Source of the DNA: Flavobacteriales bacterium
Lineage (GTDB): Bacteria; Bacteroidota; Bacteroidia; Flavobacteriales; BACL11
Assembly: GCA_002683775.1 (NCBI GenBank)
Contig: NYTT01000067.1
Coordinates: forward strand, 1 to 37,708
Length of the DNA: 37,708 nucleotides
Direction: 5' to 3'
The notes under the pieces were generated by a model. That model worked only from the letters and a program-made list of their open reading frames with translations, did no database searches and was not told where the DNA came from. The position numbers and the translations under genes are program-made. Shown here one piece after another: positions 1 to 33,376 of the stretch (positions are counted from its first letter, which is position 1; every line of letters begins with the position of its first letter).

Positions 1-356
1 ATACCAAGTTTATCAAATGTTTTTTTCATTTCTGGATCTAAGTCATCTAAACTATCTAAGACTGGCTTTTGTTTTGGAGCTGAATAATAGATTACATCCT
101 GATAGTTTGGCTTTTCATATTCAACGTTTGCCCAATCAGGCTCATCCATTTTTAGCCATATATTGTATGCATTTAATCTATAATCTAACATCCAATCTGG
201 TTCATTTTTTTTTGCTGAAATTGTGCGCACAACTCTTTCTGTAAGACCTTTCGGAATTGTGTCAGATTCTATTTTAGTTGTGAATCCATATTTATATTCT
301 GCACTAGTAACTTCTTCTAGTAGAATATCTTCGGAAAGTTGTTTTTTTTCACTCAT
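1..356 (-). CDS. sufB: Fe-S cluster assembly protein SufB, N-terminal ~118 codons; the gene continues beyond the left edge of the window
   Basis: Absent from the ORF track because no stop lies in the window. Reverse-complement translation from the ATG at 354-356 reads MSEKKQLSEDILLEEVTSAEYKYGFTTKIESDTIPKGLTERVVRTISAKKNEPDWMLDY..., a typical SufB N-terminus. It lies 11 nt downstream of an A-type Fe-S carrier gene. Confidence 0.85.
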   Translation of the reverse strand, partial: MSEKKQLSEDILLEEVTSAEYKYGFTTKIESDTIPKGLTERVVRTISAKKNEPDWMLDYRLNAYNIWLKMDEPDWANVEYEKPNYQDVIYYSAPKQKPVLDSLDDLDPEMKKTFDKLG

Positions 357-31197: not shown

Positions 31198-31508
31198 TTA
31201 TTTCATTTCAAATTCAACAACCCATTTATCAATTGAATAAAGTACTTTTTGCAGAGCTTTTGCTGACTTTGTAAGTGAGTATACAACTCTTGGTGGAGAT
31301 TCATTAAATGATTCCCTTTTATAAGATTGTCAACCTCTAATTGCTTAAGATGATCTGTAAGAACTTTTCGTGAAATTCCCTCAATTAAATTTGCTAATTG
31401 ACCAAAACGTAAATCTTTATTGCGAAGATTATAGATGATTGTTAACTTCCATTTACCTCCAACTTTTTTGTTAAAAATACTTGCTGTACATTTACTATTT
31501 TCCTTCAT
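31198..31508 (-). pseudogene. HxlR (DUF24)-family winged-helix transcriptional regulator interrupted by a 1-nt frameshift
   Basis: The N-terminal 63 codons (MKENSKCTASIFNKKVGGKWKLTIIYNLRNKDLRFGQLANLIEGISRKVLTDHLKQLEVDNLI) are canonical HxlR. The canonical C-terminus KRESFNESPPRVVYSLTKSAKALQKVLYSIDKWVVEFEMK* is encoded in the -1 frame after the T4 run at 31317-31320. It ends at a TAA (31198-31200) that abuts the ABC transporter ATG. Confidence 0.8.
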
Positions 31509-31512
31509 ATTA

Positions 31513-31593
31513 TTATTAGTTACATTAATATTACTAGTTTTTTAAAGTTACTTATTTGTTACAGTTACTTTATATTACTTTTATTAGTTACTT
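31513..31593. repeat. Array of same-orientation RTTAC(T/A) repeats, probable operator sites, in the divergent promoter region
   Basis: AGTTACTT occurs at 31546, 31563 and 31586, and AGTTACAT at 31518. GTTACA occurs at 31558, and ATTACT at 31530 and 31574. The 11-mer TTATTAGTTAC occurs at both 31513 and 31581. Confidence 0.5.
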
Positions 31594-31595
31594 TG

Positions 31596-31603
31596 CAAAA
31601 CTA
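31596..31603 (-). promoter_or_regulatory. -7 promoter box TAGTTTTG for the HxlR-ABC unit, back to back with a near-consensus plus-strand box TTACTTTG (31588-31595)
   Basis: Exact TAnnTTTG on the minus strand, 87 nt upstream of the HxlR ATG. The two boxes share the palindrome TTTGCAAA (31592-31599). Confidence 0.35.
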
Positions 31604-31623
31604 TTAAATAAATATTAATTAAA

Positions 31624-32304
31624 ATGAAAATTAAAATGAAAGAATCATCAAAAAGAGCGAAATGTCAATGTGGAAAAACTAAAGATCCAAATGGCAATTG
31701 TGATGGATCACATGCGAATACAAACAGAATTATTAAATCTATTTTATTTACTCTAGTAATTTTTGCTGGATCTGTATTTTATGCTAATGCAACTAGTCTA
31801 GTTAAAGAAAACAAAATCGATGTTAAAGAAAGTACTGTATTCTGGAAAGGGCATAAAGTTACAGGAAGTCATGAGGGAGAAATAAATGTAGCTTCCGGTT
31901 CTCTATTATTTGAAAATAAAAAATTAACTGGTGGTGAAGTTATAATCGATATGAACTCATTAGTATGTACAGATTTAACTGGAGAATACAAAGGAAAACT
32001 CGAAGGACATCTAAAGTCGGATGACTTTTTCAGTGTTTCTAAGTTTCCAAGAGCTACATTAAAAATAGTTAAAGTATCTTTAGTTAATGAAAACACATAT
32101 GAGTGTATGGCTGAATTAAATATTAAAGGACATACGGAAGAAGTATATTTCAATACAACTATTAAAAAGAACGGTGCATTGACTAAACTTAAAATTGATA
32201 GAACAAAATTTAATGTTAAGTATGGTTCTGGAAGTTTTTTTAAGGGATTAGGAGATAATATGATCTATGACGAATTTGATTTAGTGATAAACTTATCATT
32301 TTAA
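31624..32304 (+). CDS. YceI-family (polyisoprenoid-binding-like) protein with an N-terminal CDGSH-like Cys3His motif and a membrane anchor
   Basis: The C-terminal ~170 aa match YceI (VTGSHEGEI, IDMNSL, LEGHLKSDDFFSVSKFPRATL, IKGHT). Residues 14-30 are CQCGKTKDPNGNCDGSH. Residues ~36-56 (IIKSILFTLVIFAGSVFYANA) are hydrophobic. Confidence 0.8.
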   Translation: MKIKMKESSKRAKCQCGKTKDPNGNCDGSHANTNRIIKSILFTLVIFAGSVFYANATSLVKENKIDVKESTVFWKGHKVTGSHEGEINVASGSLLFENKKLTGGEVIIDMNSLVCTDLTGEYKGKLEGHLKSDDFFSVSKFPRATLKIVKVSLVNENTYECMAELNIKGHTEEVYFNTTIKKNGALTKLKIDRTKFNVKYGSGSFFKGLGDNMIYDEFDLVINLSF

Positions 32305-32310
32305 CAGTAA

Positions 32311-33183
32311 ATGAAACGTCCAGATTTTATTAAAAAATCTATATTGGGTATTTTTTCTGGTTTATTAATACCTAAAGTATCATCATCAGTACAAAAAATA
32401 AATACTAGTTTTAATATTTTAAGAAAAAATATAGGATTTAATCATATGCCAAATAAAGAAAATAAAACTAACAACACTGTAATTCACAAAGCTAATTCAA
32501 GAAATAGCGCTGACTTTGGTTGGTTAAAAGTTAACCATACTTTCAGTTTTGCAAACTATTATAATCCAGATAGAATGAATTTTGGAGCACTTAGAGTACT
32601 TAATGATGATACTATTTTAGGAGGTAAAGGATTTAGTACTCACCCACATGATAATATGGAAATAATTACAATTCCGTTGGAGGGCTCCCTAAAGCATAAA
32701 GATGATATGGGGAATGGAAGTGTTATTAAGAAAGGAGATATTCAAGTTATGAGTGCAGGAAAAGGTATTCAACATAGCGAATATAATGGAGATGATATTT
32801 TGCCGGCCAAAGTACTTCAAATATGGCTTCATCCAAATAAAATAAATGTTATTCCACGTTATCAGCAATTATCAATAAAGTCACTTATTAAACCAAATAT
32901 ATTTTCACAAATACTTTCTCCTGACATTAAAGACCAAGGAGTTTGGATTCATCAAAATTCATGGTTTAGTTTAGGAGAATTTACAAAAACTACTACTTCG
33001 AATTATAAATTACATTCAACTTCCAATGGCATATATATTTTTATTATAGATGGTAAGGTTGAAATAAATGGAGATATATTAAACAAACGCGATGCTATTG
33101 GTTTATGGCAGGTTGATTCAATAAATATTTCTAGTTCAATTGGGAGTAGAGTACTAATTATGGAGGTTCCAATGAATGTTTAG
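32311..33183 (+). CDS. Pirin-family protein (bicupin) with a 45-residue N-terminal extension
   Basis: The pirin core runs from FGWLKVNHTFSFANYY through HPHDNMEIITIPLEG...MSAGKGIQHSEYN. The ATG at 32311 is 6 nt after the yceI-like stop. An alternative start at 32446 would give a standard-length pirin. Confidence 0.8.
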   Translation: MKRPDFIKKSILGIFSGLLIPKVSSSVQKINTSFNILRKNIGFNHMPNKENKTNNTVIHKANSRNSADFGWLKVNHTFSFANYYNPDRMNFGALRVLNDDTILGGKGFSTHPHDNMEIITIPLEGSLKHKDDMGNGSVIKKGDIQVMSAGKGIQHSEYNGDDILPAKVLQIWLHPNKINVIPRYQQLSIKSLIKPNIFSQILSPDIKDQGVWIHQNSWFSLGEFTKTTTSNYKLHSTSNGIYIFIIDGKVEINGDILNKRDAIGLWQVDSINISSSIGSRVLIMEVPMNV

Positions 33184-33376
33184 TGAAATGGTAGAGGTAA
33201 AAAAATATAAAAGAAAAAAAAGTCTTAAAAAGACTCTTAATACTGTAATCGAAATTAAAAATAGTAGTCCAAAAATAATTTTTAAAGCAGAAAGTTTAGT
33301 TGTAACCTTAAGAAATAAAGCTCAATTAAACAGATGGTTAAAAATTTATCCTAACGCATGTTATACGATTAATTAA
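33176..33376 (+). CDS. Small basic hypothetical protein (66 aa)
   Basis: ATG overlaps the pirin stop by 8 nt. Lys-rich, with no recognisable motif. Could be a chance ORF in AT-rich DNA. Confidence 0.3.
   Translation: MFSEMVEVKKYKRKKSLKKTLNTVIEIKNSSPKIIFKAESLVVTLRNKAQLNRWLKIYPNACYTIN

What the first reader, a model, noticed from the sequence alone, without database searches (positions are those of the whole stretch)
31624..31800. CDGSH-like Cys3His motif fused through a transmembrane segment to a YceI domain
Residues 14-30 read CQCGKTKDPNGNCDGSH (C14 at 31663-31665, C16 at 31669-31671, C26 at 31699-31701, H30 at 31711-31713). This carries the three Cys and one His of the mitoNEET-type zf-CDGSH [2Fe-2S] signature, C-x-C-x2-(S/T)-x3-P-x-C-D-G-(S/A/T)-H. 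The C2-to-C3 spacing is one residue longer and the Pro is shifted. A basic stretch and a ~20-residue hydrophobic helix follow, and then a complete YceI domain. There is no downstream in-frame ATG before the helix, so the motif must be translated if the gene uses an ATG start. The predicted topology is a cytoplasmic metal or redox knuckle, one TM helix, and a periplasmic lipid/quinone-binding YceI domain. I have not seen that architecture described, and it would couple a cytoplasmic Fe-S or zinc site to an extracytoplasmic ligand-binding domain.
Basis: partly seen in the sequence, partly recalled or inferred. Interest (0 to 1): 0.6.

Follow-up and report, generated by a model that had tools for sequence, protein, structure and literature searches.

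The report
Mini CDGSH metal knuckle on YceI
A periplasmic lipid-binding (YceI) protein of a small marine flavobacterium has, in front of its export signal, a strongly conserved 17-residue Cys3-His loop taken from mitoNEET-type iron-sulfur proteins, and the same loop turns out to be an undescribed, free-moving mini-module in marine bacteria and their phages.

Summary
ORF 31624..32304 (+) encodes 226 aa. CQCGKTKDPNGNCDGSH lies at residues 14-30, a single hydrophobic helix at about 33-56, and a YceI barrel at 64-226.

The motif is translated and under strong purifying selection:
- 114 of the 120 best homologues (50-98% identity) keep it with exact spacing.
- The conserved residues vary at synonymous codon positions.

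It is not a CDGSH domain. Pfam does not detect it, there is no beta-sandwich, and the sandwich-contact residues phi1, P11 and phi12 are replaced. It is the CDGSH cluster-binding loop with one inserted residue (hhalign 97%).

The same "+1" 17-mer occurs in several other settings:
- free peptides of 22-50 aa in bacteria and in about 80 viral contigs;
- tandem copies;
- the tails of PSP1, S16 and 2OG-oxygenase proteins;
- the second motif of true tandem CISDs.

Unfused YceI orthologues have an ordinary signal peptide where this protein has its "TM" segment. Two separate YceI lineages encode the knuckle as a small gene directly downstream of yceI. Knuckle and YceI are therefore functional partners, fused here.

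Most likely this is a cytoplasm-facing Cys3His metal site ([2Fe-2S], or Fe or Zn) in an HxlR-controlled YceI-pirin redox module. The metal, signal-peptide cleavage and function are untested.

The parts
31624..32304 (+). Whole gene: knuckle, signal/anchor helix and YceI (226 aa; a second possible ATG lies at 31636)
   Evidence: ORF list. Full-length homologues of 215-226 aa. One copy in the own genome.
31624..31662 (+). Basic N-terminal tail (residues 1-13; variable sequence, Lys/Arg-rich)
   Evidence: Alignment. Net charge before the helix is +6 here and +5.5 on average in the family.
31663..31713 (+). 17-residue Cys3His knuckle CQCGKTKDPNGNCDGSH (C14, C16, C26, H30): the CDGSH cluster-binding loop with one inserted residue
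   Evidence: Invariant C14 C16 T19 N25 C26 D27 G28 S29 H30. Synonymous codon variation at these residues. hhalign to canonical CISDs 97.4%, E 1e-11. No Pfam hit.
31720..31791 (+). Single hydrophobic helix (residues 33-56; core 36-54), either a Sec signal peptide or a signal anchor; possible signal-peptidase site A54-N55-A56|T57 at 31783-31791
   Evidence: Hydropathy. AF2 helix 33-56. Unfused orthologues have ordinary signal peptides at the same position. Cleavage is not tested.
31813..32301 (+). YceI-like beta-barrel domain (residues 64-226)
   Evidence: Pfam PF04264, E 9e-23. Foldseek to 1wub, 5ixh, 7bwl and 1y0g, E 1e-9 to 1e-6. PDB sequence hits.
31203..31508 (-). Divergent HxlR-family regulator with an N-terminal Cys; frameshifted in this assembly at the T4 run 31317-31320
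   Evidence: Pfam HxlR covers only profile positions 2-53 of 91. The orthologous C-terminus is found in another frame. Divergent HxlR is conserved next to fused genes.
31509..31623 (.). Divergent promoter/operator region with repeated TAGTTAC-containing elements
   Evidence: the repeat finder D1 (31508-31526 and 31576-31594) and inverted repeats. Function is inferred only.
32311..33183 (+). Pirin (bicupin), 7 nt after the YceI stop codon; a conserved member of the module
   Evidence: Pfam Pirin plus Pirin_C_2. Pirin lies downstream of the fused gene in 9 of the 13 fused genome-contig loci; none was detected in L031-L035 or L043.
33176..33376 (+). Conserved 66-aa ORF of unknown function, overlapping the pirin stop codon
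   Evidence: tblastn finds it in L005, L006, L013, L031 and L041. It lies between YceI and pirin in L005, L013 and L041, and downstream of YceI in L006 and L031, where no pirin was detected. No Pfam family.

Best explanation
The gene makes a YceI-family polyisoprenoid/lipid-binding protein that is exported by the Sec pathway. Its signal sequence is preceded by a translated, strongly selected 17-residue Cys3His knuckle. The knuckle is the cluster-binding loop of CDGSH iron-sulfur proteins in minimal form. It keeps the four ligands and the loop-shaping residues (C2, C4, T7, C13, D14, G15, S16, H17). It has one extra residue, and the three residues that normally pack on the beta-sandwich (phi1, P11, phi12) are replaced by polar, turn-forming ones (K, N-G, N). 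The knuckle stays on the cytoplasmic face of the inner membrane, held by the hydrophobic segment. That segment may be a permanent anchor, or a membrane-retained leader after signal-peptidase cleavage. There the knuckle binds a metal centre, most likely a labile or redox-active [2Fe-2S] shared in a pair, or otherwise a single Fe or Zn. Knuckle and YceI are functional partners: they are fused here and encoded as adjacent genes in other lineages. They work with pirin under an HxlR-type, Cys-bearing regulator, so the module probably deals with quinone, electrophile or redox stress at the membrane. Shown: sequence, conservation, translation, homology to the CDGSH loop, the YceI fold, the gene-neighbourhood link and the modular spread. 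Inferred: topology, metal binding, identity of the metal, cleavage and physiological role.
For: Motif conservation and translation:
- The motif is kept in 114 of 120 homologues.
- The conserved residues vary at synonymous codon positions.

Homology to the CDGSH loop:
- hhalign against canonical tandem CISDs gives 97.4%, E 1e-11, with the extra residue placed as an insertion before phi12.
- The same +1 variant is the second motif of proteins that Pfam accepts as zf-CDGSH: P0256 at 3e-13 and P0257 at 4.5e-12, where the best-scoring stretch is the +1 motif.
- An AF2 model of P0256 superposes on the type-6 CISD 3tbn (TM 0.72, rmsd 2.0) and on MiNT 6avj.
- The residues retained are exactly those that Lin et al. 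2011 list as mediating iron coordination and loop structure. The residues lost are those that contact the beta-sandwich (PMC3174974).

Topology:
- Net charge is +6 before the helix and 0 after it.
- Unfused orthologues have signal peptides at the same place.
- In every other context the knuckle is on cytoplasmic proteins or on peptides without a signal.

Partnership with YceI:
- Fused genes occur in 13 genome-contig loci and about 10 loci from the order sample; some are the same contigs.
- L018 has HxlR | YceI followed by a 30-aa knuckle gene.
- L045, L046 and L049 have MarR-YceI-knuckle, with the knuckle ATG 4-5 nt after the yceI stop codon.
- These YceI proteins fall in a different, starred clade of the tree.

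Module:
- Divergent HxlR and downstream pirin are conserved.

Chemistry:
- MitoNEET's CDGSH cluster passes electrons to ubiquinone (PMC9490426).
- YceI proteins bind polyisoprenoid and quinone-type lipids (1wub is the top fold hit).
Against: - No metal data exist for any member of this knuckle family.
- Pfam zf-CDGSH, a PDB sequence profile, NCBIfam and PHROGs do not recognise the knuckle.
- Published structural work argues that the CDGSH loop needs a beta-sandwich, an N-strand and a lid proline to hold its cluster, and all three are absent here.
- AF2 confidence for the knuckle is only 56-63.
- In the split systems the peptide and the exported YceI end up in different compartments, so the nature of the partnership is obscure.
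- One fragmentary protein (P0170) reads as a C-terminal YceI-knuckle fusion, which would place the knuckle outside the cytoplasm.
- The HxlR gene of this assembly is frameshifted.
Confidence: 0.65

Rival explanations
1. The knuckle binds a single Zn(II) or Fe ion and acts as an interaction tag, like the SEC-C motif (the metal-binding domain at the end of SecA, also found on YecA and YchJ). It would be a short terminal knuckle that docks its carrier on a ribosome, a chaperone or nucleic acid. On YceI it would act during targeting or export, not as a redox centre.
For: The module always sits at the extreme N- or C-terminus of unrelated proteins (PSP1, S16, 2OG oxygenase, a nuclease, DUF1801-OmdA) or is free and very basic. 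That is how SEC-C motifs behave (own knowledge). It lacks the sandwich thought necessary for cluster stability. CDGSH was first annotated as a zinc finger.
Against: T7, D14, G15 and S16 are as invariant as the ligands. A plain Zn site would not need them, whereas they are the cradle residues of the [2Fe-2S] loop. Pfam gave no SEC-C hit at E <= 10. The +1 loop also occurs inside true CISD folds.
Confidence: 0.28
2. The two-products variant. The hydrophobic segment is a normal cleavable signal peptide, and the gene yields two products. Soluble periplasmic YceI is released by signal peptidase at A56|T57. A 56-residue membrane-retained leader carries the knuckle, and is equivalent to the free or TM-anchored knuckle peptides found elsewhere. 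This can hold whichever metal is bound.
For: The h-region is only about 15 residues long and ends in A-N-A. Several orthologues have S-Y-A or S-F-A at that point. Unfused orthologues have classical signal peptides there. In split systems the two products are separate. Small TM-plus-knuckle proteins exist, such as P0135, P0175 and P0241.
Against: Many orthologues end the segment in LQSF or FQNFTS, with no good -3/-1 site. No signal-peptide predictor or proteomic data were available.
Confidence: 0.45
3. The upstream codons are not a functional part of the protein. They are either a mis-called start or a neutral, extended n-region of the signal peptide.
For: Three database gene calls (194 aa) start at an internal Met after the motif. 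Pfam sees nothing there.
Against: This gene has no alternative ATG, GTG or TTG. The motif is the best-conserved part of the protein down to 50% identity. Its substitution pattern is that of a coding sequence. The same motif also exists as independent genes.
Confidence: 0.02

Closest known systems
CDGSH iron-sulfur domains (CISDs: mitoNEET/CISD1, NAF-1/CISD2, MiNT/CISD3, bacterial types 3-7; Pfam PF09360)
   Same: It has the 3Cys-1His ligand set in the order C-x-C...C-D-G-S-H, the Gly after C-x-C, the Thr at position 7, and invariant D-G-S before the His. It matches by profile-profile comparison. Like mitoNEET, it is tethered to a membrane and faces the cytoplasm.
   Different: The loop is one residue longer. 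phi1, P11 and phi12 are replaced by polar residues. There is no N-strand, lid-proline motif or beta-sandwich dimerisation module. The whole unit is 17-30 residues, against about 40-60 for a CISD. It falls below every Pfam threshold. The helix comes after the motif, not before it. Cluster binding is unproven.
YceI family (T. thermophilus TT1927b, E. coli YceI, Burkholderia BcnA, P. aeruginosa PA0423)
   Same: The C-terminal 163 residues are a standard YceI barrel, exported by means of an N-terminal hydrophobic segment.
   Different: Known YceI proteins have a plain signal peptide. None is described with a cytoplasmic Cys3His extension. In E. coli the partner gene is the cytochrome b561 gene yceJ (own knowledge). 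This genome shows no b561 (the assembly is 76% complete) and pairs YceI with the knuckle, HxlR and pirin.
SEC-C motif / SecA C-terminal metal-binding domain (Pfam PF02810)
   Same: It behaves in the same way: a roughly 20-residue Cys-rich knuckle at the very end of many unrelated proteins, binding Zn or Fe (own knowledge).
   Different: The consensus differs (CxCxSGx8C[HC]). No Pfam match was found. No evidence of common descent.
Extended signal peptide regions (ESPR) of autotransporters and two-partner secretion proteins
   Same: A conserved N-terminal extension placed in front of an otherwise ordinary Sec signal peptide (own knowledge).
   Different: ESPRs contain no metal-ligand motif and are not found as independent genes or on cytoplasmic proteins.

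Membership tests
CDGSH iron-sulfur domain (Pfam zf-CDGSH PF09360 / CISD types 1-7) | Three Cys and one His in the order C-x-C ... C-x3-H | tested here: met
   C14, C16, C26 and H30 are invariant in 41 aligned homologues.
CDGSH iron-sulfur domain (Pfam zf-CDGSH PF09360 / CISD types 1-7) | Canonical spacing C-x-C-x2-(S/T)-x3-P-x-C-D-G-(S/A/T)-H (8 residues between the 2nd and 3rd Cys) | tested here: not met
   There are 9 residues. hhalign places one insertion before phi12.
CDGSH iron-sulfur domain (Pfam zf-CDGSH PF09360 / CISD types 1-7) | Loop-shaping residues (S/T)7, D14, G15 and (S/T/A)16 | tested here: met
   T19, D27, G28 and S29 are invariant. The defining list is from PMC3174974.
CDGSH iron-sulfur domain (Pfam zf-CDGSH PF09360 / CISD types 1-7) | phi1, P11 and phi12, which pack on the beta-sandwich | tested here: not met
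   These positions are K13, N23-G24 and N25 here. The Pro at motif position 9 is variable in the family.
CDGSH iron-sulfur domain (Pfam zf-CDGSH PF09360 / CISD types 1-7) | Beta-sandwich dimerisation module with N-strand and GP-phi-x-phi lid motif | tested here: not met
   Only 13 variable basic residues precede the motif and 5 follow it before the helix. AF2 shows no strands of 3 or more residues there, only single-residue bridges at positions 20 and 26.
CDGSH iron-sulfur domain (Pfam zf-CDGSH PF09360 / CISD types 1-7) | Score above the Pfam gathering threshold (29.5 bits) | tested here: not met
   No hit at E <= 10 for the protein or for its first 59 residues, and none in the whole genome.
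CDGSH iron-sulfur domain (Pfam zf-CDGSH PF09360 / CISD types 1-7) | Binds a [2Fe-2S] cluster | not testable with these tools
   This needs UV-vis, EPR and metal analysis of purified protein.
YceI family (PF04264) | Match to the family profile above threshold | tested here: met
   81.7 bits against a cut-off of 23.7, covering residues 64-226 and profile positions 2-150 of 150.
YceI family (PF04264) | Extended lipocalin-like beta-barrel fold | tested here: met
   The AF2 barrel has pLDDT mostly 80-96. Foldseek hits are 1wub (E 1e-9), 5ixh, 7bwl and 1y0g.
YceI family (PF04264) | Export to the periplasm through an N-terminal signal sequence | tested here: inconclusive
   A hydrophobic segment and the positive-inside rule fit export, and orthologues have signal peptides. 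No predictor or experiment was available.
YceI family (PF04264) | Binds a polyisoprenoid or other lipophilic ligand | not testable with these tools
   Inferred only from the fold relatives.
SEC-C motif (PF02810) | CxCxSGx8C[HC] consensus and a profile match | tested here: not met
   No Pfam hit at E <= 10, and the spacing differs.

The most novel reading that the evidence does not exclude
The 17-residue '+1' CDGSH loop is a self-sufficient [2Fe-2S] cradle that needs no beta-sandwich. The free 22-30-residue peptides would then be the smallest natural iron-sulfur proteins. The YceI fusion would place such a cluster on the cytoplasmic face of the membrane, as the dedicated redox partner of a periplasmic quinone/polyisoprenoid carrier. 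This would be a bacterial, minimal counterpart of mitoNEET's electron transfer to ubiquinone, spread among streamlined marine bacteria by their phages.
Probability: 0.3. Interest if true: 0.85.

Novelty: new variant of a known kind. Interest (0 to 1): 0.62.

Why it matters
The two CDGSH surveys read here (PMC3174974, PMC5859297) describe only domains with a beta-sandwich dimerisation module, and PMC3174974 argues that the cluster-binding loop requires one. Both surveys selected sequences with the canonical pattern or with Pfam, so they would have missed this variant by construction.

This work shows a large, strongly selected family made of the bare loop. It is absent from Pfam, NCBIfam and PHROGs as a family of its own, and it is common in marine Flavobacteriales and viral contigs.

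If the knuckle binds an Fe-S cluster, it gives a natural minimal scaffold. That would interest Fe-S chemistry, protein design and ideas on early metalloproteins.

The repeated genetic pairing with YceI would also give a first concrete handle on two families with ill-defined functions: bacterial CDGSH proteins and YceI.

If it binds only zinc, it is a new terminal interaction tag.

In either case, thousands of very small genes are currently unannotated.

Tried and rejected
Searches that found nothing:
- Pfam and NCBIfam on the N-terminal 59 residues and on free peptides gave no family.
- A PDB sequence-profile search with the knuckle alignment found no CISD; the only hit was a chance match at E 1.9.
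- PHROGs has no family for the phage peptides.
- Literature searches for CDGSH+YceI, CDGSH+phage, CDGSH+small proteins and YceI+HxlR+pirin found nothing relevant.

Ideas tested and rejected:
- An alternative start codon downstream of the motif. None exists, and the codon substitution pattern is that of a coding sequence.
- A canonical CDGSH protein elsewhere in the genome as a partner. None was found.
- A cytochrome b561 (YceJ-type) partner. None was found in this 76%-complete assembly.
- Wide distribution across the phylum. There were 0 of 400 sampled Bacteroidota genomes at E <= 1e-4, so the module is confined to small marine Flavobacteriales (28 of 301) and phages.

Limits of the tools:
- The AF2 model of the full protein gave only low-to-moderate confidence for the knuckle, and no coordinates were available to measure ligand geometry.
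- ABC exporter: checked and found not conserved with the module in other fused loci. JmjC oxygenase: annotated by Pfam but not searched for in the other loci.
Full report
**1. The observation**

- ORF 31624..32304 (+) encodes 226 residues beginning MKIKMKESSKRAKCQCGKTKDPNGNCDGSHANTNRIIKSILFTLVIFAGSVFYANATS.
- The gap between the second and third Cys is 9 residues, against 8 in the canonical CDGSH signature.
- A second ATG at 31636 also precedes the motif. After it there is no in-frame ATG, GTG or TTG before the hydrophobic segment.
- Pfam finds YceI at residues 64-226 (E 9e-23). It finds no zf-CDGSH, even at E <= 10, either in the whole protein or in its first 59 residues. NCBIfam sees only YceI.
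- In the six-frame translation of the whole 1.17-Mb assembly, CDG[SAT]H occurs once, in this ORF. The genome has no canonical CDGSH domain.

**2. The motif is translated and selected**

- The protein has thousands of YceI relatives. The best 120 (50-98% identity, mostly 215-226 aa, from uncultured marine Flavobacteriales) almost all extend to the same N-terminus.
- 114 of the 120 carry C-x-C-x9-C-x-G-x-H within the first 60 residues. Positions C, C, T, N, C, G, S and H are invariant over 33 distinct motif variants.
- Of the six exceptions, four are short gene calls that start inside or after the motif, one is a partial internal duplication, and one has Trp for the first Cys.
- In a 41-sequence full-length alignment, C14, C16, T19, N25, C26, D27, G28, S29 and H30 are invariant. 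The flanking tail and the hydrophobic segment vary freely.
- Across ten loci the invariant residues use different synonymous codons (Gly GGA/GGC/GGG/GGT, Ser TCA/TCG/TCT, His CAC/CAT, Cys TGC/TGT). There are 235 synonymous against 97 non-synonymous pairwise codon differences, and the non-synonymous ones occur only at motif positions 2, 7, 8 and 9.
- This excludes an untranslated leader and a conserved RNA element.

**3. What the motif is**

Lin et al. (PMC3174974) define the 17-position motif phi1-C2-x-C4-x-x-(S/T)7-x-x-x-P11-phi12-C13-D14-G15-(S/T/A)16-H17.
- C2, C4, (S/T)7, P11, C13, D14, G15, (S/T/A)16 and H17 serve iron coordination and loop structure.
- phi1, P11 and phi12 feed the hydrophobic core of an obligatory beta-sandwich, which also supplies an N-strand and a lid-proline motif.

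The present knuckle compares as follows.
- It keeps all four ligands, and T7, D14, G15 and S16.
- It replaces phi1 with Lys, and P11-phi12 with N-G-N, which makes it one residue longer.
- Only 13 variable basic residues precede it and 5 follow it before the helix, so there is no sandwich.

Evidence on its relationship to CDGSH:
- A profile of the knuckle aligns to canonical tandem CDGSH proteins with 97.4% probability (E 1e-11). The extra residue is placed as an insertion before phi12. One of the four target sequences (P0256) itself carries the +1 motif at the aligned position, so the match is not fully independent.
- A PDB sequence-profile search finds no CISD.
- The same +1 variant occupies the second motif of small tandem proteins that Pfam accepts as zf-CDGSH (P0256 and P0257).
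- An AF2 model of P0256 superposes on the type-6 CISD 3tbn (TM 0.72, rmsd 2.0 A) and on human MiNT.

I conclude that the knuckle descends from the CDGSH cluster-binding loop and that the +1 loop is compatible with that fold. It fails the definition of the CDGSH domain. I therefore call it a CDGSH-derived knuckle, not a CISD.

**4. The knuckle is a mobile mini-module**

Order sample. A search of 301 genomes of the same order with the knuckle profile found it in 28. Reading the loci gave these settings:
- The N-terminus of helix-plus-YceI proteins.
- Free ORFs of 27-46 aa that end just after ...CDGSHxxK, several of them followed by terminator hairpins.
- The last 20 residues of 383-393-aa PSP1-domain proteins.
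- A canonical-spacing 16-mer at the C-terminus of a DUF1801-OmdA protein.

Exhaustive profile search. A search of 1.84 billion representative proteins gave 192 clusters at E <= 1e-3, almost all of 25-120 aa:
- free peptides;
- two or three tandem knuckles;
- an N-terminal TM helix followed by a knuckle;
- fusions to a 2OG-Fe(II) oxygenase, ribosomal protein S16, an endonuclease and SAP-like proteins.

Viral contigs. IMG/VR holds at least 81 stretches encoding a relative of the knuckle. The 80 loci kept gave 46 distinct free peptides of 22-50 aa, all with the +1 spacing.

Databases and wider distribution.
- No Pfam, NCBIfam or PHROG family covers these peptides.
- A sample of 400 genomes across the phylum had none. 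The module belongs to small-genome marine Flavobacteriales and to phages.
I arrived at it independently, and it is not independent proof.

**5. The rest of the protein and its topology**

- There is one hydrophobic window (36-54, mean Kyte-Doolittle 2.0). Net charge before it is +6 (family mean +5.5, minimum +2) and about 0 after it.
- AF2 gives a helix at 33-56 (pLDDT 52-58) and a confident barrel. The knuckle scores only 56-63.
- The barrel matches TT1927b (1wub, E 1e-9), BcnA, PA0423 and E. coli YceI.
- Eighty loci from named genomes include 13 fused genes, all from uncultured marine Flavobacteriales.
- They also include more than 50 unfused orthologues (41-53% identity). These have ordinary signal peptides exactly where the fused proteins have their hydrophobic segment.
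- The 'TM helix' is therefore a signal sequence with a knuckle placed in front of its n-region.
- In this protein the segment ends in A-N-A|T, a good signal-peptidase site. Many orthologues end in LQSF or FQNFTS, which is not.
- Whether the mature protein is a bitopic anchor protein or a released YceI plus a membrane-retained leader carrying the knuckle is open.
- All other carriers of the knuckle are cytoplasmic or lack a signal. Together with the charge bias, this makes a cytoplasmic location likely (inference).

**6. Knuckle and YceI as partners**

- In L018 a divergent HxlR gene is followed by a YceI gene with a plain signal peptide, and then by a 30-aa knuckle gene.
- In L045, L046 and L049 a MarR gene, a 188-aa YceI gene and a 27-28-aa knuckle gene form a tight operon. 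The knuckle ATG lies 4-5 nt after the yceI stop codon.
- In a maximum-likelihood tree of YceI domains, the 14 fused proteins group with L018. One origin of the fusion is not excluded.
- The MarR-linked trio lies in a separate, fully supported clade.
- Two YceI lineages thus pair with the knuckle independently, and a third state is the fusion. This is classic gene-fusion evidence for a functional link.
- The sister clade of the fused group carries a lipobox followed by C-K-(S/T)-C-G-C-S...H-x-H after the signal peptide. That is a Cys/His motif on the other side of the membrane, and it is unexplained.

**7. Genomic context**

- A divergent HxlR-family regulator with an N-terminal Cys is conserved next to the fused genes: 9 of the 13 genome-contig loci and the loci of the order sample. 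A pirin directly downstream is present in 9 of those 13 loci.
- A 66-aa ORF accompanies them in five loci. In three of these it lies between YceI and pirin rather than after pirin.
- The ABC exporter was not found in the other fused loci. The JmjC-type oxygenase behind HxlR was not searched for in them.
- In this assembly the HxlR gene is frameshifted at a T4 run (31317-31320). The conserved C-terminal half is readable in another frame.
- The genome shows no cytochrome b561, which is the YceI partner in E. coli (the assembly is 76% complete). It has a second, ordinary YceI elsewhere.

**8. Mechanism**

Best reading (0.65 for the architecture and partnership as stated):
- It is a cytoplasm-facing Cys3His metal centre held at the membrane in front of the export signal of YceI.
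- It works with YceI and pirin in a redox or electrophile response controlled by a thiol-bearing HxlR regulator.

For the metal I lean slightly to [2Fe-2S] (about 0.45), for three reasons:
- The non-ligand cradle residues are as invariant as the ligands.
- The +1 loop occurs in real CISD folds.
- CDGSH clusters are known to reduce ubiquinone (PMC9490426), which fits a partner that binds polyisoprenoid lipids.

Against this, published structures argue that the loop needs its sandwich. A single Zn or Fe site acting as a terminal interaction tag, in the manner of the SEC-C motif, is a serious rival (0.28). How a cytoplasmic peptide serves an exported barrel is not explained by any of my data.

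**9. Novelty and verdict**

- The fusion is a new architecture for YceI. It rests on an undescribed, minimal variant of a known metal-binding motif.
- I rate it a new variant of a known kind.
- Interest is moderate to high: the family is large, strongly selected, unannotated and directly testable by simple spectroscopy.
- There is as yet no experimental evidence for metal binding or function.

Noticed in passing
window 31203-31508 (-), T-run 31317-31320: The HxlR regulator gene is frameshifted. Orthologues continue ...DNLI(K/N)RESF(N/K)E(S/T)PPRVEYSLT..., and this sequence is present in another frame of the window, running to just before the ABC exporter start. It could be a pseudogene, a homopolymer phase switch or a MAG assembly error.
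   Followed up: partly
window 33176-33376 (+): A 66-aa ORF of unknown function overlaps the pirin stop codon. It is conserved in several fused loci, but there it lies between YceI and pirin (L005, L013, L041). It is therefore a real, position-shifting member of the module.
   Followed up: partly
window 31508-31594: The divergent intergenic region holds repeated TTAGTTAC(A/T)TT elements (a direct repeat 68 nt apart, plus inverted repeats). They are candidate HxlR operators.
   Followed up: no
L017, L019, L020, L030 (PSP1 proteins, residues 364-383): PSP1-domain proteins of 383-393 aa from the same family of genomes end in CHCGKTKNPNGNCDGSH. They begin with MGCSNCSTC, a second Cys cluster.
   Followed up: partly
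L067, L072, L073, L081, L090: The sister clade of the fused YceI proteins has a lipobox followed by C-K-(S/T)-C-G-C-S and an H-x-H stretch just after the signal peptide. This is a Cys/His-rich motif on the periplasmic side of YceI.
   Followed up: partly
L028 934-1566: A DUF1801-OmdA (YdeI-like) protein ends in a canonical-spacing bare loop, CVCGLSKRMPGCDGSH (Pfam zf-CDGSH, E 2e-5, below threshold). Bare loops therefore also exist with the normal spacing.
   Followed up: no
L111-L190 (IMG/VR) and P0149, P0262, P0211: Phage contigs encode many free knuckle peptides of 22-30 aa. The knuckle is also fused to a phage-type 2OG-Fe(II) oxygenase, to an endonuclease and to a ribosomal protein S16 with a long tail.
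   Followed up: partly
L013 (G055) motif codon 5: One fused orthologue has an in-frame TAA inside the motif (CKCG*TKNPNGNCDGSH). It is a pseudogene or a sequencing error.
   Followed up: no
P0170; compare L018 1400-1600: An 88-aa database fragment reads the YceI C-terminus, a 21-aa linker and the knuckle in one frame. L018 has a double stop codon at that point. It is either a possible C-terminal fusion or an error-ridden contig.
   Followed up: partly
window residues C115-T116-D117-L118 (31966-31977): The YceI domains of this clade have an invariant single Cys in a C-T-D-L motif, as well as invariant H83 and H129.
   Followed up: no
G000 C82 (L192 1095-2756): The genome's second YceI (172 aa, plain signal peptide) lies between a small CxxCH lipoprotein and a predicted outer-membrane barrel. 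This is a different YceI context, with no knuckle.
   Followed up: no
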